64,000 nucleotides of DNA from Minisyncoccota bacterium. Lineage in GTDB: Bacteria > Patescibacteriota > Minisyncoccia > UBA6257 > 2-01-FULL-56-20. The stretch's first letter is position 1; each line of letters starts with the position of its first letter. This document shows positions 28,105-63,001 of this stretch, one piece after another. The notes beneath the pieces are model-generated. The model made no database searches, had not been told where the DNA came from, and worked only from the letters and a program-made list of their open reading frames with translations. The stretch is taken from assembly GCA_041664245.1 (NCBI GenBank), contig JBAYLC010000001.1, positions 190,585 to 254,584 on the forward strand, read 5' to 3'. Both the position numbers and the translations under genes were made by a program.

Positions 28105-28132
28105 GTTGATAAATCTTTCCAAATAAAGAAGT

Positions 28133-28166
28133 CCACCGTAGTAAGTTCCATCGGTGGTCTTTTTTT
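28133..28166 (+). terminator. Intrinsic terminator
   Basis: CCACCG-loop-CGGTGG then TCTTTTTTTG. Confidence 0.75.
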
Positions 28167-28188
28167 GCCAATCCTGTATAATTACCCT

Positions 28189-36841: not shown

Positions 36842-37810
36842 ATGGAAAAATCCATCAGAGATTTCCCAAAACAATTCGACTTCAAGCCAAAAATTGAGAA
36901 TCAAAATAAGCTTGGATCTTGCAAGCGTTTTTTGGCGGTTGGGATGGGCGGTTCGGCTTTTCCTGCCGAAATTATCAAATTTGCCTGCCCTCAAACCTAC
37001 ATTCGGGTTCATAAAAATTACAATCTGCCTAATATTTTAAAAAGCGACGAAAAGGAAACTCTCGTTATTGCTTGTTCTTACTCCGGCAATACCGAAGAAA
37101 CTATTAGCGCTTATCAAGAGGCGAAAAAGCGAAAGCTGAATTTGGCGGCGATTGCCGTCGGCGGCAAGCTTCTTGAATTAGCCAAAAAAGATAAAGTTCC
37201 ATTTATAAAAATTCCTCAAACCGGAATTCAACCAAGAGTGGCTCTCGGTTTTATTTTGATTTCCTATCTCAAATTATTCGGCGACGAAAAAGAATTAAAA
37301 ACCTTCTCAGGTTTTTCAAAAACCTTAAATTCAAAAACTGCCGAGAAAAAGGGCAAATACTTAGCTGAAATTCTTTGGGATAAAGTGCCGGTAATTTACG
37401 CTTCCGAAAAAAATTCCGCGGTAGCTTATAACTGGAAAATAAAATTTAATGAAAGTGCTAAAATCCCCGCCTTCTATAATATTTTTCCCGAACTAAATCA
37501 TAATGAAATGACCGGCTTTGATGTTCGGAAAACCACTAAAACACTTAGTGATAAATTTCATTTCATTTTTCTTAAAGATAAAACCGACCATCCAAAAATA
37601 ATTAAAAGAATGGCTATTTGTGAAAAACTTTATCGCCAAATGGGGCTAGGAGTGGAAATTTTTAATTTAGAGGGAAAGGATAAGTGGATAAAAATTATCA
37701 GTAGTATTATGGTTGCCGATTGGACCACTTTCAATCTAGCCAGCTATTATGGCAACGATCCGGAACAAATCCCGATGGTGGAAGAGTTTAAGCGATTGAT
37801 TACTAAATAA
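36842..37810 (+). CDS. Bifunctional phosphoglucose/phosphomannose isomerase (SIS-domain PGI/PMI family)
   Basis: SIS domain GMGGSA, about 320 aa archaeal-type PGI/PMI architecture. Confidence 0.75.
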   Translation: MEKSIRDFPKQFDFKPKIENQNKLGSCKRFLAVGMGGSAFPAEIIKFACPQTYIRVHKNYNLPNILKSDEKETLVIACSYSGNTEETISAYQEAKKRKLNLAAIAVGGKLLELAKKDKVPFIKIPQTGIQPRVALGFILISYLKLFGDEKELKTFSGFSKTLNSKTAEKKGKYLAEILWDKVPVIYASEKNSAVAYNWKIKFNESAKIPAFYNIFPELNHNEMTGFDVRKTTKTLSDKFHFIFLKDKTDHPKIIKRMAICEKLYRQMGLGVEIFNLEGKDKWIKIISSIMVADWTTFNLASYYGNDPEQIPMVEEFKRLITK

Positions 37811-37845
37811 CGTGTTATAATTAAGCGAATTAAAAATAAGGAAAC

Positions 37846-38667
37846 ATGTATCTATTATTCGACATCGGCGGCACAAATATGCGTTTTGTCGCCTGTAAAG
37901 ACGGAAAAACTCTTGGTGACGTGAAGGTATTTCCGACTCCGGCCGAATTCAACGAAGGAGTTTTAGTTTTCAAAAGAATCAAAGAGGAATTTTTTGATGG
38001 CTTTCAGATCAAAGGCGTCGCCGGCGGTCTGCCAGGACCGTTCAATCGGGAGAAAACCGAAATTGCCGCCGCGCCCAATATGCCCGGTTGGAACGGCAAG
38101 CCGTTGAAAATTGAACTAGAAAAAATTTTAGAAGCGCCGGTTTATTTGGAAAACGATGCCGCCCTAGCCACATTGGGGGAAGCAACTTACGGCGCCGGCA
38201 ATGGCAAGAATAACGTTGTTTATTTCACCATCAGCACTGGAGTCGGTGGAGCCAGAGTGGTAAATGGTGTTATCGATGAAAACGTCTCTGGATTCGAGCC
38301 CGGTAGTCAATTCGTCGATATGAAAGATTATAAAACCCTAGAAGATTCCATTTCCGGCAAAGCCGTTGAAGCTAAATATGGCAAAAAGCCATATGAAATA
38401 ACCGACCCCGCCGTTTGGGATGAGCTGGCCAAAATTCTTGCCTACGGCATTCACAATAGCATTGCTCACTGGTCACCTGATATTGTTGTTTTAGGCGGCT
38501 CGATGATGAAAGAAATTGGCATTCCCGTAGACAGAGTTAGATTCCATTTGGGTCAAATGCCCCGAGTTTTTCCCGATTTGCCGCTCATTGAGAAATCTCG
38601 CCTCGGCGACGAAAGCGGCCTCTACGGCGCTTTGGCTTATATAAAGAAATTAATTCCAGCGGAATAA
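37846..38667 (+). CDS. ROK-family glucokinase
   Basis: N-terminal DIGGTNMR ATP-binding motif, ROK fold; 273 aa. Confidence 0.75.
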   Translation: MYLLFDIGGTNMRFVACKDGKTLGDVKVFPTPAEFNEGVLVFKRIKEEFFDGFQIKGVAGGLPGPFNREKTEIAAAPNMPGWNGKPLKIELEKILEAPVYLENDAALATLGEATYGAGNGKNNVVYFTISTGVGGARVVNGVIDENVSGFEPGSQFVDMKDYKTLEDSISGKAVEAKYGKKPYEITDPAVWDELAKILAYGIHNSIAHWSPDIVVLGGSMMKEIGIPVDRVRFHLGQMPRVFPDLPLIEKSRLGDESGLYGALAYIKKLIPAE

Positions 38668-38672
38668 TAAAA

Positions 38673-38705
38673 ATGGCCAGTACCTTAATACTGGTCATTT
38701 TTTTA
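38673..38705 (+). terminator. Intrinsic terminator
   Basis: ATGGCCAGTA-cctta-TACTGGTCAT then T8. Confidence 0.8.
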
Positions 38706-38802
38706 GCAGATGCTGGCATCTACTCCGAAGGCGAAGATTCAGGATCTTTTACTTCGCACAGAAACGCCATGCTGAAATGAGTAGCGTCATCACTAAGACA
38801 AC

Positions 38803-38934
38803 TTAGGGTAAAGCTGATGACTTCTGGCTCAGGATAATGACCGCATTGGAACCGGTCTTTTCTTCGAGCCATTTGTTCGCTGCAGTTTCCAAGGTGGTTG
38901 CGTCAGGGGCGTTAAATATTTTCACTTGCTTCAT
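38803..38934 (-). CDS. Small protein (43 aa), possibly truncated
   Basis: AGGGAGGTG SD before ATG; MKQVKIFNAPDATTLETAANKWLEEKTGSNAVIILSQKSSALP; unlisted. Confidence 0.3.
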   Translation of the reverse strand: MKQVKIFNAPDATTLETAANKWLEEKTGSNAVIILSQKSSALP

Positions 38935-39085
38935 TCCATCCACCTCCCTTCGTTACAGAAAAAAGCTGGATCCATCCTCAAAAAATAACGAAAATTTGTA
39001 AAGATAAAATAGTTGACATTATTTGAATAATACCCCAGAATATTGATAGCAAACTGATAATCACTAACTTGAATAGGAGGTCGTA

Positions 39086-48152: not shown

Positions 48153-50057
48153 ATGAGTAAAATAATTGGAATCGATTTAGGAACAACTAACTCCGCGGTT
48201 GCGGCCGTAAAAGGCGGCGAGCCGGAAATATTAGAAAACAGCGAAGGTAATCGTACTACTCCTTCGGTTGTTGCGGTTAACAAAAGCAACGAACGTTTAG
48301 TTGGAGTTTTAGCCAAAAGGCAAGCCATAACTAACCCAAAAAATACAATCTTTTCCGTTAAGCGCCTTATCGGTAGGAAATTCAGCGACCCAGAAATTCA
48401 AAAAGACAAAGCTTGGTTATCCTACGACACCAGAGCTTCCCAAAGCGGAGCAATTGAAGTTAAGATGGGAGAACGTTGGTACACTCCCGAGGAAATTTCC
48501 GCCGCGGTTTTAGGAAAACTAAAAGCCGATGCCGAAGCTCGCCTTGGCGAAAAAGTTGAAGAGGCGGTTATAACCGTCCCGGCTTATTTTGATGATGCGG
48601 AGCGGCAAGCTACAAAAAATGCCGGTGAAATTGCTGGTCTTAAAGTATTGCGGATTATCAACGAACCGACTGCCGCCGCTTTGGCCTACGGTGTTAATAA
48701 AAAGAAAAACGAAAAAGTTGTTGTCTACGATTTTGGCGGTGGCACTTTTGATATCTCGGTTCTTGAAATTGGCGATGATACCGTCGAGGTGAAAGCCACT
48801 GGCGGCGACACTCACTTGGGCGGTGATGATTTTGATAAAAAAATTAATGAGTATCTCGTTCAAGAATACAAGAAGCAAGAAGGGGTAGATATCTCCAAAG
48901 ATCCGCTTGCTCTTCAGCGCCTTAAAGAAGCCGCCGAAAGAGCGAAGCATGAACTTTCCACCGCCGCTGAAACCGAAATTAATTTGCCCTACGTAACATC
49001 AGACGCATCTGGTCCAAAACATTTCTTAATTAAATTAACCCGCGCCAAACTCGAAGAACTAGTAAGGGAATATATTGACCACTCTGTCGAATTAACCCGG
49101 CAGACAGTTACTTCGCCATCGCCCAAAGGTGCTGGCTATGCTCTTTCTGATATCAACGAAATAATTTTGGTTGGCGGTCAGACTCGAATGCCGGCTATTA
49201 GCGAAGCCGTTAAAAAGCTTTTCGGCAAAGAGCCAAACAAAGGAATTAATCCGGATGAAGTTGTGGCCGTCGGTGCCGCTATTCAGGCTGGCATTCTTCA
49301 GGGTGACGTAAAGGATATTCTGCTTCTTGATGTCACGCCGCTCACGCTCAGCATCGAAACTTTTGGCGCGGTGGCGACGCCGATGATTGAAAAAAACACC
49401 ACCGTCCCTACTGCTAAAACTCAGGTATTCTCCACCGCCGCCGACAATCAAACTTCGGTTGAAGTTCATATCCTTCAAGGCGAACGGCCAATGGCTGCTG
49501 ATAATAAAACCCTAGCTCGATTTATTCTTGATGGCATTCCGCCATCTCCAAGAGGTATGCCTCAAATTGAAGTTACTTTCGATATCGATGCCAACGGTAT
49601 TCTTAGCGTTTCCGCTAAAGATAAAGCTAGTGGCAAATCACAGTCCGTAAAAATCGAAGCCTCAACCAATCTATCTAAAGACGAGGTTGAAAAATTAAAA
49701 AAAGAAGCGGAAATGCATGCCTCCGAAGACGCCAAAAAGAGGGAAGTCATTGAAGCTCGCAATCAAGCGGAAAGTTTGATCTATTTGTCTGAAAAATCAC
49801 TTCGCGACGCCGGCGATAAAATTACTCCGGATATCAAAACCGGTGTCACTGAAAAAATTGAATCCCTCAAAAAGGTAAAAGACGGAGAAGATTTAGAAGT
49901 AATTAAATCCGCTTCGGCTGATTTATCCGCCGAGATTCAAAAAATTGGGCAAACAATGTATAATCAAAACCAAGGCGGTCCCGGCCAGAATCCAAGTGGT
50001 GAACAAACTCCAAACGAAAACGAAACTCCTCCTAATCCTGAGCCGCCGCAAAGTTAA
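48153..50057 (+). CDS. dnaK: Chaperone DnaK (Hsp70)
   Basis: [21 protein letters not shown], substrate-binding domain; 634 aa. Confidence 0.97.
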
Positions 50058-51100
50058 TGCCCGAAGATTTAAACGCTCAAAATTTTGTTCGACAATCGGG
50101 ATCGGTTGATTTAAAGCCTCAAAAACCGCAAGAATTTTTCAAAGCTTTGGCGCTGGAAATTTTAGCTTTTACTTCTGCTGTTGCTTTTAGTTTTATTTTT
50201 TGGCTCTATACTCTTGGTCAAACCAGCTTCGTACTTGCAGCTGCTGTTTTCCTTATTTTTGCGATCTTATCCACTCTTGAATTATTTTTAGTCAAAAATC
50301 TACTCCGGCGTTTTTTGGTCATTATTCTAGAGTCATTAGGGCTTCTTTCCGCCTTTATTATTAATAGTCGCCCTCTTACTGATTTATTGATTGTTTTTTT
50401 AGTTTTAACGATTTTTCATCTCTTCGGAGAACTAACTGGCCGCCACGAAGAAAAAAGCTACATCGAACAGCGGTTTTTTAAAGTGTCTCGAGTGAAACTT
50501 AGCAAGTTAGCGACCGCCATTACTTTTTTCGTGGTACTGCTATATCTTCCCAGCCTCAATTATCAAAATATCAAGTTAGAAGAAATTATAATCACGCCCA
50601 AAAATTTTAAAGTGGTCTACAACTGGGCCTCCGGTTTTTTCAAAAACATGGCGCCAGATTTAAATCTGAACCTAGACAGTAATGTTACCGATCTTGCCAA
50701 AAGTTTAGCTAAATCAAAACTTCAAAATATTCCGGCCTACAAGGATTTGAATCCTGCTGATCAGCAAAACGCCCTTGATAAAGCCGCCGGTGAAATCATC
50801 AAAAATTTTAGCGATAATTTTAAAACAACCATTGAGACCGACAAGCCGAGTAGCGATTTTTTCTATAACTTTTTAATCCAAAATCTTTACAACTGGAAGG
50901 CCAGTTTAGAAAAGAATGGTTTGGGCAATTGGTTTCTAGTTGGTTGGTTAGTGCTTTTTTTCTTAATCATTCGCAGCATTGGCGCAATTTTTTCTTTTCT
51001 CGCTGCCGGGTTAACCTTTATCATCATTCAGCTTTTGTTGGTTATCGGATTCATAAAAATTAAGACCGAATCCAAAACTAAAGAATCACTTACTCTTTGA
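50057..51100 (+). CDS. Polytopic membrane protein inserted between dnaK and dnaJ (hypothetical)
   Basis: Start overlaps dnaK stop (TAATG); 7+ TM helices; no recognised domain. Confidence 0.6.
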   Translation: MPEDLNAQNFVRQSGSVDLKPQKPQEFFKALALEILAFTSAVAFSFIFWLYTLGQTSFVLAAAVFLIFAILSTLELFLVKNLLRRFLVIILESLGLLSAFIINSRPLTDLLIVFLVLTIFHLFGELTGRHEEKSYIEQRFFKVSRVKLSKLATAITFFVVLLYLPSLNYQNIKLEEIIITPKNFKVVYNWASGFFKNMAPDLNLNLDSNVTDLAKSLAKSKLQNIPAYKDLNPADQQNALDKAAGEIIKNFSDNFKTTIETDKPSSDFFYNFLIQNLYNWKASLEKNGLGNWFLVGWLVLFFLIIRSIGAIFSFLAAGLTFIIIQLLLVIGFIKIKTESKTKESLTL

Positions 51101-51184: not shown

Positions 51185-52282
51185 ATGAAAGATTATTATC
51201 AAATACTTGGTGTTTCAAAAAACGCCACAGATGAAGAAATAAAAAAGGCGTTTCGCAAATTAGCCCACCAGCATCATCCCGACAAAAAGACCGGAGACGC
51301 GAATAAATTTAAGGAAATCAACGAAGCCTATCAGGTTCTTTCCGATAGAAATAAGCGCTTTCAATATGATCGTTTCGGAACGGCAGAGCCGTTTGCTGGT
51401 TTTCCGGGCGGTGGCCAAGCCGGACCGAATACTAATTGGGGTGGGTTTCCAGGTTTTGAGGGACAATTCAACGGCGACTTTGGTGATTTAAACGACATCT
51501 TTGATAGCTTCTTCGAGGGCCTCGGCGTTAAACCAAAAAGGCGAACCTATCAACGTGGCTCTGATTTGGAAACGATTCTGGAAATAACTCTTGAGGAAGC
51601 TTATCACGGAGTTTTAAAAAATATCGAGGTCAAAACCTATATCAAATGCCAAGATTGCAAAGGAAAGGGAGCTGATGAATCCGCCGGTTCCACGACTTGC
51701 TCAATTTGCAGCGGTCGAGGCGAGATAAAAGAACAAAGCCGAACTTTTTTTGGCAGCTTCTATCAAGTTAAACCTTGCACACACTGCCGTGGCGTTGGCC
51801 AAATTCCCAACAAAATTTGCGCTTCTTGCCACGGTACTGGCCGAAAACAATCTGAAAGAAAAATTTCGGTTGAAATTTTGCCTGGTGTCAACAACGATCA
51901 AATAATCAAAATGACCGGCGCCGGAGAAGCCGGGGAACGGGGAGCGACGGAAGGGGATTTGTATATCAGAATTAGGGTAAAATCCCACTCGATTTTTATG
52001 CGGCAGGGAAATGACCTGATTATTAAAAAAGATTTAAATGTTATTGATTTACTTTTAGGCAAAAAAATTGAAGTTCCCACTATTTCGGGCGGAAAAATCA
52101 CTGTGGAAATTCCTGCTCAGTTTAATCTAAAAGAGGATCTGCGCGTCCGAGGCGAAGGAATGCCTCGCTTTGGTAGTTTTGGCCGCGGTGATTTGATGAT
52201 AAATTTTTCACTTAAAGCGCCAAAAAAACTTGATTCAAAAACCAAAAAAACTCTTGAGGATATTCTAGGCAATGAAGCTTAG
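51185..52282 (+). CDS. dnaJ: Chaperone DnaJ
   Basis: J-domain HPD, G/F-rich region, four CxxCxGxG zinc repeats. Confidence 0.95.
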   Translation: MKDYYQILGVSKNATDEEIKKAFRKLAHQHHPDKKTGDANKFKEINEAYQVLSDRNKRFQYDRFGTAEPFAGFPGGGQAGPNTNWGGFPGFEGQFNGDFGDLNDIFDSFFEGLGVKPKRRTYQRGSDLETILEITLEEAYHGVLKNIEVKTYIKCQDCKGKGADESAGSTTCSICSGRGEIKEQSRTFFGSFYQVKPCTHCRGVGQIPNKICASCHGTGRKQSERKISVEILPGVNNDQIIKMTGAGEAGERGATEGDLYIRIRVKSHSIFMRQGNDLIIKKDLNVIDLLLGKKIEVPTISGGKITVEIPAQFNLKEDLRVRGEGMPRFGSFGRGDLMINFSLKAPKKLDSKTKKTLEDILGNEA

Positions 52283-52349
52283 GCGTTAATAAATAATAAT
52301 CTTGATAGATATATAGTACTGCACTGAGCGAGGGAAGCGAGCCGAAATG

Positions 52350-52423
52350 TGCGCCCACTAGGATTTGAACCTAGGACCATCTCCTTAAAAGGGAGCTGCT
52401 CTACCAGACTGAGCTATGGGCGC
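52350..52423 (-). tRNA. tRNA-Lys (anticodon UUU)
   Basis: Cloverleaf: acceptor GCGCCCA/TGGGCGC, D-arm GCTC-AGTCTGGTA-GAGC, anticodon loop CTTTTAA, T-arm CTAGG-TTCAAAT-CCTAG; no encoded CCA. Confidence 0.9.
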
Positions 52424-52847: not shown

Positions 52848-53888
52848 ATGAACGGACGCGTCAAAGTTGAGAAGCTAGGCATCATTCTGGCTCCGACAGA
52901 AAATTCATTTGAGAATCGTTCAGTTTTAAACCCTGGCTGTTATCAAGAGGGTGAATTTGTTCACCTTTTTTATCGTGCGATCGATAAAAAAATGAATTCA
53001 TCAATCGGTTACGCAAAATTAAAAGGGCCGACGGAAGTCGTTGAGCGCTGGGACCATCCGATTATCGAACGAAAATATAATTATGAAAAAAAGGGTTGTG
53101 AAGATCCAAGAATCGTTAAGCTTGGTAGCACATTCTACCTCACCTATGTCGCTCACGACGGGAAAAACGCCGTCTCTTGCTACGCCACTAGCCGGGATCT
53201 AAAAAAATTCGAGAAAAAAGGGATTATCACTCCAAAGATGAGCTATGACGCTATTGGTAGGATTTTCCGGCAGGAACAGCTTAAAGATCGTTACTTCATG
53301 TTTGAGTCATACTACGAAGAATATGGCGGCAAAAACGTTCTGCTCTGGGAAAAAGATGTTTTTATTTTTCCGAAAAAAATAAAAAATAAATTTGCGCTTA
53401 TCCACCGAATTTTGCCTGATATCCAAATTGTCTATTTTGACAGCTTTAGCCAACTCCAAAATAAAAATTTCTGGAAAAATTATTTAAAAAATCTTCCGAA
53501 GTACGTCGTTTTAGAAAACAAATATTGGTTTGAGTCTCGCAACATCGGTGGGGGAGCGCCGCCAATCGAAACCAAAGATGGCTGGCTTTTAATTTATCAC
53601 GCTGTTGAAGAACTAAATAAATCTAGAATCTATCATGCTGCCGCTGCCCTGCTTGATAAAAAAGATCCTCAAAAAGAAATTGCTAGATTAAATTATCCAC
53701 TTTTTTCACCAGATTTAGATTGGGAAAAGCACGGCTTTGTTCAGGATGTAGTTTTTCCGACCGGTACCGCGATTTTCGGCGAAGATTTGTATATCTACTA
53801 CGGCTCAGCGGATAAATTTATCGCCGTTGCCAAAGTTAATCTTCATCAACTCCTGAAAGATCTCAGAGCCTCTCGTATAAAAAACTAA
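52848..53888 (+). CDS. GH130-family glycoside phosphorylase/hydrolase (beta-mannoside phosphorylase-like, DUF377)
   Basis: 5-bladed propeller motifs: NPG, GCEDPRIVKLGSTFYLTYVAHDG; 346 aa. Confidence 0.6.
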   Translation: MNGRVKVEKLGIILAPTENSFENRSVLNPGCYQEGEFVHLFYRAIDKKMNSSIGYAKLKGPTEVVERWDHPIIERKYNYEKKGCEDPRIVKLGSTFYLTYVAHDGKNAVSCYATSRDLKKFEKKGIITPKMSYDAIGRIFRQEQLKDRYFMFESYYEEYGGKNVLLWEKDVFIFPKKIKNKFALIHRILPDIQIVYFDSFSQLQNKNFWKNYLKNLPKYVVLENKYWFESRNIGGGAPPIETKDGWLLIYHAVEELNKSRIYHAAAALLDKKDPQKEIARLNYPLFSPDLDWEKHGFVQDVVFPTGTAIFGEDLYIYYGSADKFIAVAKVNLHQLLKDLRASRIKN

Positions 53889-53889
53889 A

Positions 53890-56106
53890 ATGACTCTTAA
53901 GATTCCCGCATCAAAATCAAATTACGTCCTCCACCTTAGTTCCTATCCTCCTCGGGAGTGCGGCATTGCCACCTTCACTCAAGATTTAACTCTTGCTATA
54001 GATAATAAATTTAACCCCGCCATCAAATCAAGAATTATTGCCCTGAATGATCAGTCCACCAGCATTTATAACTACAACAATAGAGTTTTTGGAGAAATAA
54101 CCGCCACCGAAATCGAAAATTATGTTAATCTCGCTAGGGAAATCAATACTCGTTCGGACGTAAAAATTGTTAATATTCAGCACGAATTCGGTCTTTTTGG
54201 CGGCAGCTGGGGCGATTATTTGATTCCATTCCTTCAAGTCATTGAGAAACCCGTAGTTGTTACCTTCCACTCCGTTCTTTCTGGCCCCGAGGAGGAGCTT
54301 CGTAATATTGTCCGTTCCATCGCTGAAAAATCTGCCGCCCTCGTGGTCATGAATAAACTATCAGAAACGATATTGCTCAAGGAATACGGCATTCCTAAGG
54401 AAAAAGTCGTTATGATTCCCCACGGTATCCCGCAGGCTTCGTTTGAACCAAGTGATAAATTTAAATTGGAGCATGGTTTTGAGGGAAAAATTGTTCTTTC
54501 AACCTTTGGTCTTCTAAGTCCCAATAAAGGCATTCAATATGCCATTCGCGCTCTGCCAGAAGTAGTAAAAAAATATCCGAATGTTATCTATCTGGTTTTA
54601 GGCGCCACCCATCCGAACATTCGAAAAGAAAAAGGCGAGATTTACCGTAACGCTCTTAACGTTGAAGTTGAAAAACTAGGATTGAAAGATCACGTTAAGT
54701 TTTACAATAAATACCTAACTATTGAAGAAATTATCAGCTACCTGAAAGCAACTGATATTTATATTTCTCCGACCGTTGATCCCGATCAATCAGTGAGCGG
54801 CACGCTTTCTTATGCCATGGGTTGCGGCCGGCCGATTGTAAGCACTGCCACCGCATATGCCAAGTATTTAGTTACCGCAAAAAATGGAATTCTAGTGAAT
54901 TTTCGAAGCGCCAATTCAATTTCCGACGCCATTCTGAAGCTCTTGGATGATCCCAAAAAAATGAAATCATTAAGCAGTGAAGCCTACGAAGTTACTCGCC
55001 CAATGACCTGGCCAAACGTTGCCACCTCTTATTTCAAACTCTACGAAAATTTGGTTGATCTAGAAAGAGAAGAAAGAAAACTTCCAGAAATTAATCTTTC
55101 CCATCTTACGAGAATGACCGATAACTTTGGAATTTTTCATTTTGCTAAATATAGCAAACCAGAAAAACGTTATGGTTATAGTTTGGACGACAACGCTCGC
55201 GCTCTCGTCGTTTGCGCTAAATATTTTAAACTGAATCCCAAACCCGAAATAGAAAATCTGTTAAATATATTTTTGAAATTCATTAAATTTACCCAGCGGC
55301 CAAGCGGTACTTTTGCTAATATTGTCTCCTATCAAAAACAGAAAGACGCTACCACCGACGAGGACGTGCAGGGGAGAGCCATCTGGGCGCTCGGTTATGC
55401 CGCTTCGCAAACTTTATTGCCGGAAAAAGTAAGGTTGGAAGCGGAACGAATGCTCAAAAAAGCCCTGCCCCATGCCTTAAAAATTATTTCCCCCCGTGCT
55501 GTTGCCTTCACTCTCTCCGGCTTGTATTTCTACCTGAAACAAAATCCCGACAAGAAATTAACCGGCGAATTTATAAAATTAGCCGATCATCAGCTTAATC
55601 ATTACAAAAACGTTGCTTCGGAGGATTGGCATTGGTTTGAGGATCAGCTGACTTATTCAAATAGCAAACTGCCAGAATCTCTAATCTATGCTTACGATCT
55701 CATCGGCGATAAAAAATACCTAGAAGTCGCCAAAAAAACTGTGAACTTCCTTGATCAAATCACTTTTGAAAAAGATTATTATTCACCGATTGGCCAGAAC
55801 GGCTGGTACTTCCGCCAGAAAAAACGCTCCTATTTTGACCAGCAACCCGAAGACACTGCTTCTACGGTTGAAACAAAAGTCACTGCTTATAAAGTCACCA
55901 AAGATAAAAAACACCTGAAAGACGCCTACACGGCCTTCCAATGGTTCCTCGGGAAAAACCACCTTGGCCAGATGGTCTACGATGAAGTTACCGGCGGTTG
56001 CTGCGACGGCGTAGGCCAATACGCGATCAACCTCAACCAAGGCGCCGAATCAACTATTTCTTACTTAATGGCTCGCCTCGCGATTGAAGAGATTAAGGAA
56101 AATTAA
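53890..56106 (+). CDS. GT4 glycosyltransferase fused to C-terminal (alpha/alpha)6-barrel glycoside-hydrolase-like domain
   Basis: N-terminal GT-B fold about 400 aa; C-terminal about 330 aa with GYSLDDNARAL, QGRAIWALGYAAS, GGCCDGVGQY toroid-like motifs. Confidence 0.7.
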   Translation: MTLKIPASKSNYVLHLSSYPPRECGIATFTQDLTLAIDNKFNPAIKSRIIALNDQSTSIYNYNNRVFGEITATEIENYVNLAREINTRSDVKIVNIQHEFGLFGGSWGDYLIPFLQVIEKPVVVTFHSVLSGPEEELRNIVRSIAEKSAALVVMNKLSETILLKEYGIPKEKVVMIPHGIPQASFEPSDKFKLEHGFEGKIVLSTFGLLSPNKGIQYAIRALPEVVKKYPNVIYLVLGATHPNIRKEKGEIYRNALNVEVEKLGLKDHVKFYNKYLTIEEIISYLKATDIYISPTVDPDQSVSGTLSYAMGCGRPIVSTATAYAKYLVTAKNGILVNFRSANSISDAILKLLDDPKKMKSLSSEAYEVTRPMTWPNVATSYFKLYENLVDLEREERKLPEINLSHLTRMTDNFGIFHFAKYSKPEKRYGYSLDDNARALVVCAKYFKLNPKPEIENLLNIFLKFIKFTQRPSGTFANIVSYQKQKDATTDEDVQGRAIWALGYAASQTLLPEKVRLEAERMLKKALPHALKIISPRAVAFTLSGLYFYLKQNPDKKLTGEFIKLADHQLNHYKNVASEDWHWFEDQLTYSNSKLPESLIYAYDLIGDKKYLEVAKKTVNFLDQITFEKDYYSPIGQNGWYFRQKKRSYFDQQPEDTASTVETKVTAYKVTKDKKHLKDAYTAFQWFLGKNHLGQMVYDEVTGGCCDGVGQYAINLNQGAESTISYLMARLAIEEIKEN

Positions 56107-56450
56107 TGAAAAGTTTCTTAAAGCCGAAACTTGAAAAAATACTACTAACGTTTTTTTGTTTTCTTATACTGTCGGTTTTTTCTGGAATTGATCCAACTTT
56201 TGAATCCGGATTTATCAACCAAAATAACAAAACATTTCAAAGAATACCAGAGCCTACCGGTTGTGAGTTGTTTCGATATCAACTTGTTGGATTTTCATTG
56301 CCCGTTAATAAAATGCAATGTGGTCCAAATATAAGCACTTCATATAATTTTGCGATCTTTTTACTAATTATTTTTTATTTAATTACCTGCACGATAAATT
56401 TCATTTCAGATAAGATAAAAATTAGAAAGAAAAAATTTAAAAAAGAATAA
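56106..56450 (+). CDS. Small membrane protein (hypothetical)
   Basis: Start overlaps upstream stop (TAATG); two TM helices. Confidence 0.45.
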   Translation: MKSFLKPKLEKILLTFFCFLILSVFSGIDPTFESGFINQNNKTFQRIPEPTGCELFRYQLVGFSLPVNKMQCGPNISTSYNFAIFLLIIFYLITCTINFISDKIKIRKKKFKKE

Positions 56451-56453
56451 ATA

Positions 56454-57644
56454 ATGAATTTGATAGAAGAAACAAAAAACAGAGCAATAAATGTTTTAAA
56501 TCACTGCGCCAAAAAAACCGGCTTCTACGCCTCTGGTCTTCCCGGCGGTTACGAAGCCACTTGGGCGCGCGACAGCATGATCACCAGCCTTGGCGCTAGT
56601 TTGATCGCTAAAAAATTCCAAGTGCCATTCCGAAAAAGCCTCGAACTTTTATCAAAAAATCAATCCAAGCATGGCCAGATTCCTAATGCTGTTGGTTCGT
56701 GGAACACCGAACGCCGATCGGACGTTACTTTCAATTCCATCGATTCCACTCTTTGGTATCTAATCGGCCAGCAGGTTTACGCCAAAGCCTATAAAACTAA
56801 ATCGCTCCTAAATAAATACAAAAAAAATATCGCCGGCGCCTTAACTTGGCTCGAATATCAAGACCCGAACGAAGACTCTCTTTTAGTCCAGCAACCAACG
56901 ATGGATTGGGAAGACGCTTTTCCGCACAAATACGGCCGCGTTATTAACACCGAAGCTATGTATTATTTAGTTCTAAATTTATATGGCCAAAAAAAGAAAG
57001 CGGAACATCTCAAAAAAATCGTTAACGGCGAAACCGAAAAATATCTCTCTCTCTATGATTCTAAACTAGGGTTTTATCGTCCGTGGGTTTGGAAAACTCA
57101 CAGTCCGAAAGTTCGAGAACAAGAAGAGTGGTTTGATACCCTCGGTAATCTTTTAGCCATCGTGAGTGGTCTAGCCACGCCGAAAATCGCCAAAAATATT
57201 TTAAACTACATTGAGAAAAATAAAATTAATCGTCCCTATCCCTGTAAAGCCATTTATCCACCAATTAAAAGAGGGGACAAGGAATGGCATTCTTATTTTG
57301 ATGAATGCGAAGCCAAAGAGGCTTATCACTATCTAAACGGCGGGATCTGGCTGATGATCGGCGGTTTTTACGTTGCCGCCTTAGTCAAAGCCGGCCAACT
57401 CACTAAAGCGAAAAAGGAATTAGAATTTCTCGCTAAAGCTAACCGCGTCGGTCAATCGCTCGATCGTTTTGAACGTTCGAGCGCCATTCGTAAACTCGGA
57501 GTTATCAGCGAATGGCAATTTATGGAATGGTTAGACGGCAAAACTGGGAAAGTTATCGGTTCCGCCTCGCCCTACCAAGCTTGGAGCGCCGGCGCCTATC
57601 TTTTCGCTTATAACTGTGTAAAAACGAAAAAGGCGGGTTTTTAG
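56454..57644 (+). CDS. (alpha/alpha)6-barrel glycoside hydrolase (GH100 neutral-invertase/GDE_C-like)
   Basis: GGYEATWARDSMIT, QQPTMDWEDAF, YLNGGIWLMIGGFYVAAL resemble GH100/amylo-alpha-1,6-glucosidase catalytic motifs. Confidence 0.6.
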   Translation: MNLIEETKNRAINVLNHCAKKTGFYASGLPGGYEATWARDSMITSLGASLIAKKFQVPFRKSLELLSKNQSKHGQIPNAVGSWNTERRSDVTFNSIDSTLWYLIGQQVYAKAYKTKSLLNKYKKNIAGALTWLEYQDPNEDSLLVQQPTMDWEDAFPHKYGRVINTEAMYYLVLNLYGQKKKAEHLKKIVNGETEKYLSLYDSKLGFYRPWVWKTHSPKVREQEEWFDTLGNLLAIVSGLATPKIAKNILNYIEKNKINRPYPCKAIYPPIKRGDKEWHSYFDECEAKEAYHYLNGGIWLMIGGFYVAALVKAGQLTKAKKELEFLAKANRVGQSLDRFERSSAIRKLGVISEWQFMEWLDGKTGKVIGSASPYQAWSAGAYLFAYNCVKTKKAGF

Positions 57645-57658
57645 GCTCGCCGTAATCT

Positions 57659-57865
57659 TTAACCCAACGGAACCGCTTGTAGCGCAAGAAGAATTGCGAC
57701 TACAAACGAAAAGATAATAACGCAAATTTCTTGCGCAACTTTCCAGCTCTTTTTGTCGCGGAGTTTGTTTTCGCGACAATCACACGGCCGGCGCTTAAAA
57801 AGAATTAAAGCGCCAACAAACAACGAAACTGCCGCAATCGAGAGCAACGTCGTAGTCAAATTCAT
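57659..57865 (-). CDS. Small membrane protein (68 aa, hypothetical)
   Basis: GAGGAGG SD 6 nt before ATG (MNLTT...); ORF track uses upstream TTG. Confidence 0.45.
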   Translation of the reverse strand: MNLTTTLLSIAAVSLFVGALILFKRRPCDCRENKLRDKKSWKVAQEICVIIFSFVVAILLALQAVPLG

Positions 57866-57913
57866 GAAATACCTCCTCAAAGTAACTTCCGAATTTATAC
57901 CACTTAAATAAAC

Positions 57914-59059
57914 CTACTTCAATTTAAACCGCTCTTTAATCTTATCTGCCATTTGTTTAGCAATCTTATGGTATTCAAATTTTTCCACGGCGTGTTCGCG
58001 CGCTCGCGCTCCCATTTTTTCGCGCAAATCTTTATCTTTGAGCAATCGTAAAAGATAACCCGCCAGTTCTTCCACATCCGCGCGGTAAGCAAAAGTTTTT
58101 GGTTTCTCAAACTGGATTTTATGATCTTCCTCAAATCCCATTCCGACATAGGCCCACTCCTCGGTTAAATCAATCGTCGAAGCCACTTTTGCCAAAAAAC
58201 CGGTCTCGCCATGAATAATGGTCTCTTTCGGTCCCATTTCATCAATTGAAATAACCGGCTTTCCGCACGCCATCGCTTCCACTTGAATCATACCGAATCC
58301 CTCAAGCCGTGAAGGCGCAGCGTAAATATCACATGCATTTAAAAGTAGAGGCATGAATTCCCGAGACATAGAACCTTCTAAATAAATCACTTTATCCTTT
58401 GACACTCCCAGCTCCTCAATCAACGCCATTTCGTCATCATAATGATCATCAGCGCTCTCTCCACCCCAAATTTTACAGACGTATTTCCAATTTTCAAATT
58501 CCTGATCTACTTTTTTAAGCGCTCTAAAAATCTCCTGCGCCCCTTTCGAAGTCACATCGCCGCCGGCCGTCATAATCATCACTTCGTCCTCTTTGACGCC
58601 GATCATTTCGCGAACTAATTTTATTCGCGCGTCATCTCGGGGAATCGGTTTAAATTTTTCAGTTTCCAGCCCGATCGGCAGCGTCACAAAATTTTTTGTG
58701 TCCACTCCGTCGCGCGCAAAAGTTTTTGTCACCCAATCACTGGTTGTAAAAACTAAAGGCAGGCCACCGATTTCTTTGTGATAATTTGCCACCCAGCCGT
58801 CGGCTAAAAGCCATGGCACCGGTTGAATTCCATATTTTTGGGGATGAAAAATCAAGTCAAAGGCATGCCCCCAAAACCCGACACCGATCGCCACGTCAGG
58901 TTTTAAATACCTATAAATAAACTCTTTTTGGAATTCGCTGGAAAGATGGCAGGGGACAACCTCATCGCCGTTTTCCTTTAAACCGCGATAGAGCATATCG
59001 CCCTGCTGGCTTAAGCCGTCCGGTTCCGGCGGATATGCATATAAAACAATCGCTTTCAT
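57914..59059 (-). CDS. GT4-family glycosyltransferase (PIG-A/MshA/BshA-like)
   Basis: GT-B fold with EX7E motif (EGFGMIQVEAMACGKPVI); start overlaps stop of upstream PIG-L gene. Confidence 0.85.
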   Translation of the reverse strand: MKAIVLYAYPPEPDGLSQQGDMLYRGLKENGDEVVPCHLSSEFQKEFIYRYLKPDVAIGVGFWGHAFDLIFHPQKYGIQPVPWLLADGWVANYHKEIGGLPLVFTTSDWVTKTFARDGVDTKNFVTLPIGLETEKFKPIPRDDARIKLVREMIGVKEDEVMIMTAGGDVTSKGAQEIFRALKKVDQEFENWKYVCKIWGGESADDHYDDEMALIEELGVSKDKVIYLEGSMSREFMPLLLNACDIYAAPSRLEGFGMIQVEAMACGKPVISIDEMGPKETIIHGETGFLAKVASTIDLTEEWAYVGMGFEEDHKIQFEKPKTFAYRADVEELAGYLLRLLKDKDLREKMGARAREHAVEKFEYHKIAKQMADKIKERFKLK

Positions 59060-59661
59060 AAAATTAATTCCTTAAAACTTTCTTGTCTCGCGCAGCTTCT
59101 ATATTCAAACGAGCTCTTTTTGAATCCATAAATTTCATTAATAATATGCTTTTTTCGACTTAAAATATTTTGGGTAAGATTATTTATAAAGCTAGATTTA
59201 ATTTTAGGCTCTATGCGGCCATTTCTATCGTCTAGTTCATAATTAAAACAAAAAAACCGGCTCGCGCTAAGTTTCTTTTCTTCAGCCAAAGTTTTCAAAG
59301 CTCGATGGACGCCCTTGTGTCGCGGATGCCCATACTCACCATTATACGCGTGCGTAAAAATATAATCAAAACGTCGCGACGGAAGTTCCCGCAAAACCCG
59401 CCGGCGGATTTCGGGTAGACTCTCGCTTATGTTCAACTGCTCCTCGTCCTCGAGATTAGAAATAATTGCTTTCGCGCCGTAAACGTTGCAAACTTTTTTA
59501 AATTTAGGCGCTCTGTCAAGATCATCACCTCGGCAAAGTGAAAAAACTGTCCACTTGATTTGTGGATTAATCAAAATTGTTCCGCCCATCCAAATTGTTT
59601 CGTCATCTGGATGTGCAACTAATATCAGGGCGCGGCCGCCGCCCAGCAACAACTCTCGCAT
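59056..59661 (-). CDS. PIG-L/LmbE-family N-acetylglucosaminyl deacetylase
   Basis: VAHPDDE zinc-binding motif, HxxH (HPRHKGVH) later motif. Confidence 0.85.
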   Translation of the reverse strand: MRELLLGGGRALILVAHPDDETIWMGGTILINPQIKWTVFSLCRGDDLDRAPKFKKVCNVYGAKAIISNLEDEEQLNISESLPEIRRRVLRELPSRRFDYIFTHAYNGEYGHPRHKGVHRALKTLAEEKKLSASRFFCFNYELDDRNGRIEPKIKSSFINNLTQNILSRKKHIINEIYGFKKSSFEYRSCARQESFKELIL

Positions 59662-61966: not shown

Positions 61967-63001
61967 ATGATTCAAGCAGATAAAATTTTTAATAATCTCT
62001 TAGAAGACTTATCTCCTAGACAAAAGGAAGTTATTTGTGGCCGTTTTAATATTGACAATAAATATAACGAGCCGCAAACCCTGGCCGCCCTCGGAGAAAA
62101 ATACGGAGTCACCCGAGAAAGAATCCGCCAAATAGAGGCCGGCAGCCTTGTTAATCTCAAGAGAAAAATTGCTCAAAACAAAGAATGCAATGAAATCCTT
62201 TCGAGTGGTCAAAAAGTTTTAGCCAACGCCGGCGGTCTAGTAAAAAGCGATGTTCTTTTAGCCTCTCTTAATAATCAATTTAGCGGTCTGACCCAGGACC
62301 ATCTTTCTCTTCTTCTCGAAGTTTCAAAAAATTTCCATTTCTACGGAGAAGACAAGGATTTTAATTCTTTCTATTATATTGATAAAAACAAATTCGCCGC
62401 GGCTGATAAATTAATTAATCAATTTGTAAAATCACTACGCCAGCAAAAAGAAGCAATCCTTGCCGGCGGATATTTTGATTCGTTTAAAAAATTCGTCGTT
62501 GCTCAAGAAATTAAAGAGTCTATTTTCCAAAATTTTTTGAATGTCTCTAAAAAAATTCACAAAAGCACCCTAAACGACGTTGGCTTAAGCGAGTGGCCGG
62601 AAATTAAACCACAAAACATCCGAGATCGAATTTATTTGATTCTCAAAAAGAACAACAAACCTCTTCATTTTGAAACCATCACCAAGTTGATTAACGAATC
62701 AAAATTTGATTCAAAGATTGCCCTTACGCCGACCGTCCATAATGAGCTAATCAAGGATTCCCGGTTTATTCTAGTCGGACGGGGAACCTACGCTCTAGCT
62801 GAAAACGGATATAAACCGGGGACAGTACAAGAGGTGATAAAGCGGATCATTAAATCTGACGGTCCTATGAGACCAAAAGAAATCTCACTAGCCGTTGAAA
62901 AGGAAAGAATACTAAAACCAAATACCATCCTCGTTAATCTGCAAAACCGAAAAGTTTTTTCCCGTCTTTCGGATGGGCGCTACACTATACGAGAAGCGTA
63001 A
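61967..63001 (+). CDS. Protein with N-terminal sigma-70 region-4-like HTH and C-terminal winged-helix-like domain (hypothetical regulator)
   Basis: LSPRQKEVICGRF...TLAALGEKYGVTRERIRQIEAGSLVNLKRKI resembles sigma70 r4 HTH. Confidence 0.5.
   Translation: MIQADKIFNNLLEDLSPRQKEVICGRFNIDNKYNEPQTLAALGEKYGVTRERIRQIEAGSLVNLKRKIAQNKECNEILSSGQKVLANAGGLVKSDVLLASLNNQFSGLTQDHLSLLLEVSKNFHFYGEDKDFNSFYYIDKNKFAAADKLINQFVKSLRQQKEAILAGGYFDSFKKFVVAQEIKESIFQNFLNVSKKIHKSTLNDVGLSEWPEIKPQNIRDRIYLILKKNNKPLHFETITKLINESKFDSKIALTPTVHNELIKDSRFILVGRGTYALAENGYKPGTVQEVIKRIIKSDGPMRPKEISLAVEKERILKPNTILVNLQNRKVFSRLSDGRYTIREA

What the first reader, a model, noticed from the sequence alone, without database searches (positions are those of the whole stretch)
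52848..59661. Glycan-metabolism cluster with a GT4+(alpha/alpha)6 fusion and a PIG-A/PIG-L-like (GT4 + LmbE deacetylase) pair
On the + strand: a GH130 phosphorylase-like protein, a 738-aa GT4 fused to a hydrolase-like (alpha/alpha)6 domain, and a GH100/GDE_C-like hydrolase. On the - strand: a GT4 whose start overlaps the stop of a PIG-L/LmbE deacetylase. GT4 + LmbE is the committed pair in mycothiol (MshA/MshB), bacillithiol (BshA/BshB) and GPI/GlcN-inositol-lipid (PIG-A/PIG-L) synthesis. The cluster could make a GlcN-containing glycolipid, a low-molecular-weight thiol, or a compatible-solute glycoside and recycle it via the phosphorylase. Three small membrane ORFs are interspersed.
Basis: partly seen in the sequence, partly recalled or inferred. 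Interest (0 to 1): 0.55.

Follow-up and report, generated by a model that had tools for sequence, protein, structure and literature searches.

The report
Conserved mannose/glucosamine glycan gene module
Five soluble sugar-handling enzymes sit together here as a gene module that recurs in many tiny symbiotic bacteria (Patescibacteria) and archaea (DPANN); it most likely builds and recycles an unidentified mannose- and glucosamine-containing sugar compound inside the cell, and nobody appears to have described it.

Summary
All five enzymes are real ORFs with the stated domains, and none has a hydrophobic segment. The locus is not a chance neighbourhood. The same five genes recur with unrelated flanks in many Patescibacteria and, in a different gene order, in DPANN archaea.

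It splits into two units:
- **Unit A:** a GH130 gene directly upstream of a GT4 fused to an (alpha/alpha)6 domain. This pair also occurs in Bacteroidota (including cultured Flavobacterium), Asgard archaea, Bathyarchaeia and methanogens. The GH130 carries the full residue signature of beta-1,2-mannoside phosphorylases. The fused GT4 is atypical: QX7Y replaces the EX7E motif family-wide. Its C-terminal domain belongs to the uncharacterised YPO2471 family, with GH76 alpha-mannanases as the next structural neighbours.
- **Unit B:** PIG-L deacetylase, a canonical GT4 and a GH100-like alpha-glycosidase. Anchoring on the GT4, PIG-L was upstream in 72 of 72 loci.

Genes linked to the module elsewhere are mannose and sugar-phosphate enzymes.

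The low-molecular-weight-thiol reading is not supported. The best reading is cytoplasmic synthesis and phosphorolytic or hydrolytic turnover of a mannoside and a GlcN-glycoside; the acceptors are unknown. I rate it a new variant of a known kind, of moderate to good interest.

The parts
52848..53888 (+). GH130 phosphorylase, beta-1,2-mannoside type (unit A)
   Evidence: PF04041 173 bits. Best PDB matches are Teth514_1788 1,2-beta-oligomannan phosphorylase (4.5e-49) and Teth514_1789 (1.1e-42). Residues R43, E85, D86, K169, R187, H251 and D322 match the 'GP beta-1,2' signature of PMC7660257 Table 2. No hydrophobic segment.
53890..55065 (+). GT4 (GT-B) domain of the fusion, atypical QX7Y subclass (unit A)
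55066..56106 (+). (alpha/alpha)6 C-terminal domain of the fusion, YPO2471-like (unit A)
56106..56450 (+). 114-aa two-TM ORF filling the gap between the fusion and the GH100-like gene; lineage-specific
   Evidence: No Pfam hit. No tblastn match in about 160 loci. Packed tightly between its neighbours (TAATG overlap upstream, 3 nt downstream). In most relatives the gap is 0-50 nt.
56454..57644 (+). GH100-like single-domain (alpha/alpha)6 glycosidase (unit B)
57659..57880 (-). 73-aa two-TM ORF in the convergent gap; not conserved
   Evidence: No tblastn match in related loci. Only sub-threshold Pfam hits.
57914..59059 (-). Canonical GT4 glycosyltransferase (unit B)
   Evidence: Glycos_transf_1 99.8 bits. 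Best PDB matches are B. anthracis BshA-type 2jjm/3mbo at 4e-12 and MshA at 2e-9, over the C-terminal half only. The second EX7E glutamate (E261) is invariant and position 253 is E/D. CPR and DPANN copies are 53-56% identical.
59056..59661 (-). PIG-L/LmbE (CE14) metal-dependent de-N-acetylase (unit B)
   Evidence: PF02585 41.3 bits. The AHPDDE and GEYGHxRH motifs are invariant in 14 orthologues. They align with the MshB motifs. The stop overlaps the GT4 start by 4 nt.
36842..38667 (+). PGI/PMI + ROK kinase pair; a possible accessory, unlinked in this genome
   Evidence: TIGR02128 238.9 bits against a cut-off of 213.9; ROK 116 bits. The same two genes directly follow PIG-L in L006 and PGI/PMI does so in L003.

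Best explanation
This is a conserved, cytoplasmic, five-enzyme glycan module made of two cooperating but separable units.

**Unit B (inferred).** The canonical GT4 transfers a HexNAc, most likely GlcNAc from UDP-GlcNAc, in alpha-linkage to an unidentified soluble acceptor. The co-translated PIG-L enzyme removes the acetyl group to give an alpha-GlcN-glycoside. The GH100-like clan GH-G glycosidase hydrolyses that alpha-glycoside, or its precursor, to recycle it.

**Unit A (inferred).** The fused GT4 domain adds alpha-mannose, probably from GDP-mannose. The GH130 reversibly adds or removes beta-1,2-linked mannose with Man-1-P and phosphate. The YPO2471/GH76-like barrel trims, transfers or holds the mannoside.

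Released Man-1-P and hexoses re-enter glycolysis through PMM, PGI/PMI and ROK or GHMP kinases. The net function is a small reserve or osmolyte-type mannoside/GlcN-glycoside pool with ATP-saving phosphorolytic mobilisation.

**Shown here:** gene content, conservation, motifs and folds.
**Inferred:** donors, acceptors, order of the steps and physiological role.
For: - **Conservation.** The five genes recur with unrelated flanks in Yanofsky-, Harrison-, Doudna-, Lipton-, Specht- and Falkowbacteria and others. They also recur in a different gene order in Woesearchaeota, Iainarchaeum and other archaea (L026, L039, L041, L043).
- **Linkage, anchoring on the second GT4.** PIG-L is upstream in 72/72 loci and the GH100-like gene is present in 53/58. 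Among 21 loci with at least 6 kb on both sides, the fusion is present in 18 and GH130 in 17.
- **GH130 + fusion core.** 66 of 72 GH130 ORFs lie within 1.5 kb of the fusion, across many phyla.
- **GH130 type.** It has the beta-1,2 phosphorylase signature, and its closest solved relatives are characterised beta-1,2-mannoside phosphorylases.
- **Mannose context.** Other lineages place a PMI cupin (14 loci), ROK kinase (10) and an HddA-like GHMP sugar-1-kinase (7) next to the module. A split version of the fusion sits directly behind Man-1-P guanylyltransferase-like and PMM/PGM genes. In Thermoanaerobacter the characterised GH130s also sit beside a GT4 and a Man-1-P guanylyltransferase (PMC4264767).
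- **Cytoplasmic location.** None of the five enzymes has a hydrophobic segment, and no flippase, polyprenyl-phosphate transferase or transporter is conserved in the module.
- **Catalytic competence.** The PIG-L metal and catalytic motifs are intact. The GH100-like protein is closest to anomer-inverting alpha-glucosidases of clan GH-G.
Against: - No acceptor or product is identified, and nothing here is biochemical.
- The fused GT4 lacks both EX7E glutamates, so its donor, or even ordinary transferase activity, is uncertain.
- Units A and B are separable. A occurs alone in Bacteroidota and many archaea. B has no A within 10 kb in 3 of 21 well-flanked loci. A single linear pathway is therefore not required.
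- The PIG-L and second GT4 matches to characterised enzymes are weak, so HexNAc specificity is an analogy.
- Peripheral-membrane GT4s such as PimA also lack TM segments, so a lipid acceptor is not excluded.
- I did not find PMM or Man-1-P guanylyltransferase among the window ORFs I scanned. About a dozen smaller ORFs were not scanned.
Confidence: 0.45

Rival explanations
1. Envelope glycoconjugate synthesis. The pair of GT4 and PIG-L makes a GlcN-lipid anchor (GlcN-PI, GlcN-PG or GlcN-DAG-like). The fused GT4 mannosylates it as PimA does. GH130 and the two barrels remodel the glycan. This would be a PIM/GPI-like glycolipid on lipids scavenged from the host.
For: The best PDB sequence match of the fused GT4 is PimA. 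PIG-L family members act on GlcNAc-PI. NCBIfam lists a weak hit of the second GT4 to GlcNAc-phosphatidylglycerol synthase (46 bits). Peripheral GT4s need no TM segment.
Against: All equivalog scores are far below cut-off. No flippase, lipid-synthesis or membrane protein is conserved in the module. Three of the five activities are catabolic-type soluble enzymes, including a phosphorylase that needs cytoplasmic phosphate. The same enzymes, at 53-56% identity, serve bacteria and archaea, whose lipids differ. The linked genes are sugar-phosphate enzymes.
Confidence: 0.22
2. Purely catabolic salvage of host-derived mannosides or N-glycan and chitin fragments. PIG-L acts like the Thermococcales diacetylchitobiose deacetylase. 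GH130 and the barrels degrade oligosaccharides. The GT4s act as retaining phosphorylases or transglycosylases.
For: With the profile, the best PDB match for PIG-L is the PH0499 diacetylchitobiose deacetylase, although weak at 0.0066. GT4 is listed among the families that contain phosphorylases (PMC4264767). The fused GT4 lacks the nucleotide-associated EX7E motif. ROK and GHMP kinases and PMI are nearby.
Against: No transporter or binding protein is conserved with the module. The second GT4 keeps a canonical EX7E. The split fusion is preceded by nucleotide-sugar synthesis genes. The GH130 signature is beta-1,2, not the beta-1,4 Man-GlcNAc type.
Confidence: 0.12
3. Low-molecular-weight thiol pathway (mycothiol/bacillithiol-like). 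GT4 + deacetylase would make GlcN-X, which is then ligated to cysteine.
For: The gene pair and its overlap mimic mshA/mshB and bshA/bshB. BshA and MshA are among the best PDB hits of the second GT4.
Against: The MshA, BshA and MshB equivalog scores are 7-24% of their cut-offs. The window's only CysRS-like gene is a true cysS and fails MshC. No ligase or acetyltransferase is conserved beside the pair in about 160 loci. The constant partners are instead a glycosidase, a phosphorylase and a mannosyltransferase-like fusion.
Confidence: 0.03
4. Two unrelated operons that merely abut in this genome.
For: The units are on opposite strands. Each occurs without the other in some genomes.
Against: They are adjacent in nearly all well-flanked Patescibacteria loci. 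They remain linked after rearrangement in archaea.
Confidence: 0.05

Closest known systems
Thermoanaerobacter sp. [quoted passage not shown]
   Same: These are the closest solved and characterised relatives of the window GH130. A GH130 also sits next to a GT4 and GDP-mannose synthesis genes, and the role proposed there is cytoplasmic.
   Different: That cluster carries an ABC importer and a GH5, and was read as salvage of imported oligomannan. Here there is no transporter, the GT4 is fused to an (alpha/alpha)6 domain, and a PIG-L/GT4/GH100-like trio is attached. I could not test whether Teth514_1785/1786 are the split form of the fusion.
Leishmania mannogen cycle (GT108 dual mannosyltransferase-phosphorylases)
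   Same: A cytoplasmic beta-1,2-mannan that is built up and then phosphorolysed to Man-1-P as a carbohydrate reserve (described in PMC7660257 and PMC10913872). It is the closest functional analogy for unit A.
   Different: The enzyme family differs (GT108, not GH130 + GT4). The Leishmania system has no GT4 fusion and no GlcN component. No beta-1,2-mannan has been shown in these prokaryotes.
MshA/MshB, BshA/BshB and PIG-A/PIG-L (GT4 + CE14 deacetylase committed pairs)
   Same: The same two families in the same order of action, with overlapping genes and intact deacetylase metal and catalytic motifs.
   Different: All equivalog scores are far below cut-off. There is no Cys ligase, no PIG-A domain and no membrane segment. 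The constant third partner is a GH100-like glycosidase.
Cyanobacterial sucrose cycle (GT4 sucrose-phosphate synthase + GH100 invertase) and the glucosylglycerate GpgS/GgH cycle
   Different: Here a deacetylase takes the place of the phosphatase step. Neither the sugar nor the acceptor is known.
Cyclic beta-1,2-glucan synthase Cgs (glycosyltransferase + (alpha/alpha)6 transglycosylase + GH94 phosphorylase in one protein)
   Same: The same three kinds of activity are combined: a GT, an (alpha/alpha)6 barrel and a beta-1,2-specific phosphorylase. This is an analogy from my own knowledge, not tested here.
   Different: The families are unrelated (GT84/GH189/GH94 against GT4/YPO2471-like/GH130). 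The sugar is glucose, not mannose. Cgs is a membrane protein. GT4 enzymes are retaining, so the fusion cannot itself make beta-linkages.
YPO2471 of Yersinia pestis (PDB 7tem) and GH76 alpha-1,6-mannanases
   Same: The C-terminal domain is homologous to YPO2471 (9.7e-17, shared motifs). GH76 enzymes are the next structural neighbours.
   Different: YPO2471 has no known function (no paper found) and is annotated as exported. I could not establish equivalence of the invariant D433-D434 with the GH76 catalytic Asp-Asp.

Membership tests
GH130 beta-1,2-mannoside phosphorylase | Pfam PF04041 above the gathering score | tested here: met
   173 bits against a cut-off of 26.
GH130 beta-1,2-mannoside phosphorylase | Catalytic proton-donor Asp (D104 of the reference) and phosphate-binding Arg/His (R168, H231) | tested here: met
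   D86, R187 and H251 are present, and conserved in 70-72 of 72 module-linked GH130s.
GH130 beta-1,2-mannoside phosphorylase | +1 subsite signature of Glu (at Y103) and Lys (at R150) that marks beta-1,2 specificity (PMC7660257 Table 2) | tested here: met
   E85 in 72/72 and K169 in 71/72.
GH130 beta-1,2-mannoside phosphorylase | NCBIfam equivalog for beta-1,2-mannobiose phosphorylase | tested here: not met
   214 bits against a cut-off of 450. Same type, but not the same equivalog.
GH130 beta-1,2-mannoside phosphorylase | Phosphate-dependent cleavage of beta-1,2-mannosides | not testable with these tools
   Needs an enzyme assay.
GT4 retaining glycosyltransferase (fusion, N-terminal half) | GT-B fold and the Glycos_transf_1 domain | tested here: met
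GT4 retaining glycosyltransferase (fusion, N-terminal half) | EX7E motif (PimA E274 and E282) | tested here: not met
   Q300 and Y308 occupy those positions. The substitution is family-wide: 75/76 and 69/76.
GT4 retaining glycosyltransferase (second GT4, 57914-59059) | Glycos_transf_1 domain and the EX7E motif | tested here: met
   99.8 bits. In the motif E/D253-x7-E261, E261 is invariant.
Mycothiol / bacillithiol pathway | GT4 reaches the MshA or BshA equivalog score | tested here: not met
   69 against 462.5, and 65 against 273.7.
Mycothiol / bacillithiol pathway | Deacetylase reaches the MshB equivalog score | tested here: not met
   21.7 against 224. With the profile, PDB matches to MshB are only 0.009.
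Mycothiol / bacillithiol pathway | Cys ligase (MshC/BshC) and acetyltransferase (MshD) present | tested here: not met
   The window's CysRS-like gene passes cysS and fails MshC. None is conserved near the pair in about 160 loci. The rest of the genome was not available.
PIG-L / LmbE (CE14) de-N-acetylase | PF02585 above cut-off, plus the AHPDDE and HxxH metal and catalytic motifs | tested here: met
   41.3 against 28.2. H17, D19, D20, H112 and H115 are invariant in 11-14 orthologues and align with the MshB motifs.
GPI-type GlcN-PI synthesis (PIG-A/PIG-L) | PIG-A-type GT4 and membrane association | tested here: not met
   No PIG-A domain appears among the Pfam hits. No hydrophobic segment is present in either protein.
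GH100 / clan GH-G alpha-glucosidase | PF12899 above cut-off and a single-domain (alpha/alpha)6 barrel closest to GH100 | tested here: met
GH100 / clan GH-G alpha-glucosidase | Catalytic base Glu (InvA E414) and acid Asp (InvA D188) | tested here: inconclusive
   The invariant E358 aligns with the 'fpEyyDG' motif of InvA and InvB. The acid Asp lies in a region that HMMER did not align; candidates are D151 (nearly invariant, 90% or more) and D154 (invariant).
YPO2471-like (alpha/alpha)6 family | Significant profile match with shared motifs | tested here: met
GH76 alpha-1,6-mannanase | Sequence membership and a catalytic Asp-Asp at the equivalent position | tested here: inconclusive

The most novel reading that the evidence does not exclude
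Patescibacteria and DPANN archaea share a horizontally exchanged system for a cytoplasmic reserve glycan. It would be a beta-1,2-mannan or mannoside, like Leishmania mannogen, primed on an alpha-GlcN-glycoside. Three components would build and mobilise it: a new GT4 subclass without EX7E (possibly using a donor other than an ordinary nucleotide sugar, such as the Man-1-P made by its GH130 partner), a new glycoside-active (alpha/alpha)6 family (YPO2471-like), and a GH130 phosphorylase. On this reading the GH130 + fusion pair, present in more than 590 species genomes, is a widespread and unrecognised prokaryotic mannoside cycle.
Probability: 0.15. Interest if true: 0.8.

Novelty: new variant of a known kind. 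Interest (0 to 1): 0.55.

Why it matters
Patescibacteria and DPANN archaea have very small genomes. A roughly 6.8 kb module kept at 50-70% identity across their classes, and shared between the two domains, should therefore do something important. Carbon or energy storage and osmoprotection in these symbionts are poorly understood.

The GH130 + fusion core also occurs in cultured Flavobacterium, Winogradskyella, Nonlabens and Salegentibacter, so it can be tested genetically.

Characterisation could deliver four things:
- a function for the solved but unannotated YPO2471 fold;
- definition of a GT4 subclass that lacks EX7E;
- an endogenous bacterial or archaeal source of beta-1,2-mannosides, which the authors of the Thermoanaerobacter work noted was missing;
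- a new GlcN-glycoside pathway parallel to mycothiol, bacillithiol and GPI initiation.

Tried and rejected
- **Thiol pathway.** Rejected on equivalog scores, on cysS against MshC, and on the absence of a conserved ligase.
- **Small membrane ORFs as module parts.** Rejected. They have no homologues in about 160 loci. The same gap in relatives holds non-homologous ORFs or nothing.
- **Promoter and terminator scan.** Counts do not differ from shuffles and are uninformative. The only feature of note is a terminator-like hairpin at 57632-57651 at the end of the GH100-like gene.
- **Literature.** No paper mentions YPO2471. None links GH130 to CPR beyond a bare gene count, and none links PIG-L to DPANN glycan genes.
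- **GH76 catalytic Asp-Asp against D433-D434.** The profile alignment to GH76 covers other helices, so this stays unresolved.
- **L167's 748-aa GDE_C/MGH1-like protein as an orthologue of the window GH100-like protein.** BLASTP shows no significant similarity. It shares only weak family-level (GDE_C) domain hits.
- **PIG-L subfamily assignment.** The profile against PDB gives only marginal hits to Dac and MshB.
Full report
**1. What is there**

The window comes from a Patescibacteria (CPR, Parcubacteria-like) genome. The fusion protein is 100% identical to a JGI protein on a 287-kb contig, and its nearest named relatives are Lipton-, Wolfe-, Yanofsky- and Harrisonbacteria.

- GH130, 52848-53888(+).
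- A 738-aa GT4 with a C-terminal extension, 53890-56106(+).
- A GH100/GDE_C-like protein, 56454-57644(+).
- A second GT4, 57914-59059(-).
- A PIG-L/LmbE deacetylase, 59056-59661(-).

The genes are tightly packed. One nucleotide separates GH130 from the fusion, and PIG-L and the second GT4 overlap by 4 nt. None of the five enzymes has a hydrophobic stretch; the highest Kyte-Doolittle 19-residue score is 1.5.

The flanks are housekeeping genes: hrcA-grpE-dnaK-(unknown)-dnaJ and tRNA-Lys upstream, and secD-secF downstream.

**2. The cluster is a conserved module, not a chance neighbourhood**

I looked up four distant homologues of the fusion. All four gave the same five genes in the same order with completely different flanks: Yanofskybacteria, Harrisonbacteria, Doudnabacteria and a fourth assembly.

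A scan of one genome per species found at least 596 relatives of the full-length fusion. I analysed the best 80 by tblastn and ORF clustering.
- The trio of GH100-like protein, second GT4 and PIG-L accompanies the fusion in all well-covered Patescibacteria loci.
- Four archaeal loci also carry PIG-L and the second GT4 beside the fusion: L026 Woesearchaeota, L039, L041 and L043 Iainarchaeum. The GH100-like gene is present in L026, L039 and L041. It was not found in L043, where about 7 kb of sequence lies downstream of the second GT4.
- In the archaea the order differs: GH130 > fusion ... PIG-L > GT4 > < GH100-like. Linkage therefore survives rearrangement.

I then ran the reverse test, anchoring on the second GT4 in metagenome contigs.

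| Partner gene | Loci with partner / loci with enough sequence |
|---|---|
| PIG-L directly upstream | 72 / 72 |
| GH100-like gene | 53 / 58 |
| Fusion (loci with at least 6 kb on both sides) | 18 / 21 |
| GH130 (same 21 loci) | 17 / 21 |

CPR and archaeal copies of the second GT4 are 53-56% identical. This suggests the module was transferred between the two domains.

**3. Two units**

*Unit A* is the GH130 + fusion pair, and it is the deep core. Of 72 GH130 ORFs in these loci, 66 lie within 1.5 kb of the fusion. The pair occurs without unit B in:
- Bacteroidota, including cultured Flavobacterium, Winogradskyella, Nonlabens and Salegentibacter;
- Promethearchaeota and Bathyarchaeia;
- several other phyla.

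Full-length relatives of the fusion also occur in Methanosarcinales, Nitrososphaerales, Verrucomicrobiota and Brocadiia. In those loci the nearby GH130 is distant, non-adjacent or absent.

*Unit B* is PIG-L, the second GT4 and the GH100-like protein. It is confined to Patescibacteria and DPANN in my samples. It can occur without unit A within 10 kb (L104, L143, L158).

**4. GH130**

The closest solved relatives are the two characterised Thermoanaerobacter enzymes: 1,2-beta-oligomannan phosphorylase Teth514_1788 (4.5e-49) and beta-1,2-mannobiose phosphorylase (1.1e-42).

Li et al. (PMC7660257, Table 2) give residue rules for mechanism and linkage. The window protein matches their 'GP beta-1,2' pattern at every position:
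- proton donor D86;
- phosphate-binding R187 and H251;
- R43;
- E85 at the Tyr/Glu position;
- K169 at the Arg/Lys position;
- D322.

These residues are kept in 70-72 of 72 module-linked GH130s. The protein falls below the NCBIfam equivalog cut-off (214 against 450), so it is the same type but not the same orthologue group.

**5. The fusion protein**

A profile of the C-domain hits 7tem at 9.7e-17, sharing the DDxAR and DG..N.N.GAEST motifs. GH76 enzymes appear only at E of about 0.01. I found no paper that mentions YPO2471.

The C-domain family has 3590 representatives at 50% clustering. It occurs both fused (about 740 aa) and stand-alone (about 350 aa).

One split example, L167, is informative. 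Its gene row is:
1. a Man-1-P guanylyltransferase-like gene;
2. PMM/PGM;
3. a 420-aa GT4, 42% identical to the fusion's N-terminal half;
4. the stand-alone C-domain, starting 2 nt later;
5. a 108-aa ORF, then a large GDE_C/MGH1-like protein.

This context, the PimA-like similarity and the Thermoanaerobacter cluster all favour GDP-mannose as the donor. In that cluster the GH130s sit beside a GT4 and a Man-1-P guanylyltransferase (PMC4264767).

One unexpected feature needs stating. The two glutamates of the GT4 EX7E motif (PimA E274 and E282) are replaced by Q300 and Y308. This holds in 75 and 69 of 76 homologues from both domains, and in the split GT4 of L167. K213 is retained, and new invariant residues appear: T240-H241-P242 and Y252-R253.

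Both halves carry invariant polar residues. In the barrel these are D433, D434, R437, R536, N591, N690 and D706. Both halves therefore look catalytically active.

**6. Unit B**

*PIG-L.* The protein has the invariant AHPDDE and GEYGHxRH motifs, which align with the corresponding MshB motifs. It cannot be assigned to a characterised subfamily. Profile E-values are 0.007-0.02 to diacetylchitobiose deacetylases and 0.009 to MshB.

*Second GT4.* It keeps a canonical EX7E. Its best PDB hits are BshA-type and MshA enzymes, but only over the generic C-terminal half.

A retaining GT4, a deacetylase and an alpha-glycosidase together suggest a cycle: synthesis of an alpha-HexNAc glycoside, its deacetylation, and hydrolytic recycling.

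**7. Context genes point to mannose and sugar phosphates**

In other lineages the module is joined by:
- a Man-6-P isomerase cupin (PF01050, 14 loci);
- ROK kinases (10 loci);
- a GHMP kinase whose best hits are the anomeric kinases HddA and fucokinase (7 loci);
- an extra GT4 (7 loci).

In L003 and L006 a bifunctional PGI/PMI, and in L006 also a ROK kinase, follow PIG-L directly. The window has the same PGI/PMI + ROK pair 15 kb upstream.

**8.

*Low-molecular-weight thiol.* This reading fails every membership test I could run.
- The equivalog scores are a small fraction of their cut-offs.
- The only CysRS-like gene in the window is a true cysS, at 413.7 against 340. It fails MshC at 269 against 485.
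- No ligase or acetyltransferase is conserved by the pair.

*GPI or PIM-like glycolipid.* This is not excluded, because peripheral GT4s need no TM segment. But it has no conserved membrane, flippase or lipid gene. It must also explain three soluble catabolic-type activities and near-identical enzymes in bacteria and archaea.

**9. Mechanism I commit to**

My confidence is about 0.45 for the general scheme and lower for any single step.

- *Unit B* makes an alpha-GlcN-glycoside through three steps. The GT4 transfers the sugar, PIG-L deacetylates it, and the GH100-like enzyme hydrolyses it.
- *Unit A* adds alpha-mannose through the fused GT4. It adds or removes beta-1,2-mannose through the reversible GH130. 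The YPO2471/GH76-like barrel trims or transfers.
- Man-1-P and hexoses return to glycolysis via PMM, PGI/PMI and kinases.

The role would be a small cytoplasmic reserve or osmolyte pool that can be mobilised by phosphorolysis without spending ATP.

Shown here: gene content, conservation, folds and motifs. Inferred: donors, acceptors, the order of the steps and the physiology.

**10. Novelty and score**

Each protein belongs to, or is structurally close to, a known superfamily. Four things are undescribed in the searchable literature:
- the conserved five-gene module;
- the GH130 + GT4-(alpha/alpha)6 core;
- the EX7E-less GT4 subclass;
- the function of the YPO2471-like domain.

I rate it a new variant of a known kind, with interest 0.55. 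It is real, widespread, coherent and testable in cultured Flavobacteria, but its function is still inferred.

Noticed in passing
window 50057-51100 (+): A 347-aa ORF with no Pfam or NCBIfam hit sits between dnaK (48153-50057) and dnaJ (51185-52282). Its start abuts the dnaK stop, so it is an unknown protein embedded in the hrcA-grpE-dnaK-dnaJ row.
   Followed up: no
window 61967-63001 (+): A 344-aa protein has sigma-70 region 4 at its N-terminus and a HARE-HTH (RNA polymerase delta-like) domain further on, with no region 2. This is an unusual architecture directly after secF.
   Followed up: no
window 56106-56450 (+): A 114-aa two-TM ORF is packed tightly between the fusion (TAATG overlap) and the GH100-like gene (3 nt), yet has no homologue in about 160 related loci. 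The closest relative, L007, has a non-homologous 89-aa hydrophobic ORF in the same gap, and L016 has a 120-aa non-membrane ORF there. The site seems to accept variable small inserts.
   Followed up: partly
window 23882-30377 (+): A row of glycerate 2-kinase (MOFRL), pyruvate phosphate dikinase/PEP synthase-type enzyme, D-2-hydroxyacid dehydrogenase and enolase. This is a lower-glycolysis and glycerate block. Glycerate is a known acceptor in other GT-made compatible solutes, but I found no link to the module.
   Followed up: no
window 36842-39814 (+): Bifunctional PGI/PMI (passes TIGR02128), a ROK kinase and a short-chain dehydrogenase. PGI/PMI and ROK are attached to the PIG-L end of the module in other Patescibacteria (L003, L006).
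   Followed up: partly
window 6439-8853 (+): An 804-aa protein with a central SPFH/Band 7 domain lies between uvrB (4106-6154) and uvrA (9034-11553).
   Followed up: no
L167 2224-9670 (ENA ERZ27247989 k141_2985509): A split form of the fusion. The row is a Man-1-P guanylyltransferase-like gene, PMM/PGM, a 420-aa GT4 (42% identical, also QX7Y), a stand-alone 361-aa C-domain, a 108-aa ORF and a 748-aa GDE_C/MGH1-like protein. There is no GH130 within 6 kb.
   Followed up: partly
L018, L019, L021, L022, L025, L026, L034 (Woesearchaeota/Nanoarchaeota loci): Next to the fusion these archaea carry a GHMP kinase (best hits HddA and fucokinase, which are anomeric sugar kinases). Most also have a ROK kinase and a PMI cupin there. 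The row suggests a direct route from mannose to Man-1-P.
   Followed up: partly
window 52349-52423 (-): tRNA-Lys(UUU), the only RNA gene found in the 64 kb. It lies between dnaJ and the module.
   Followed up: yes
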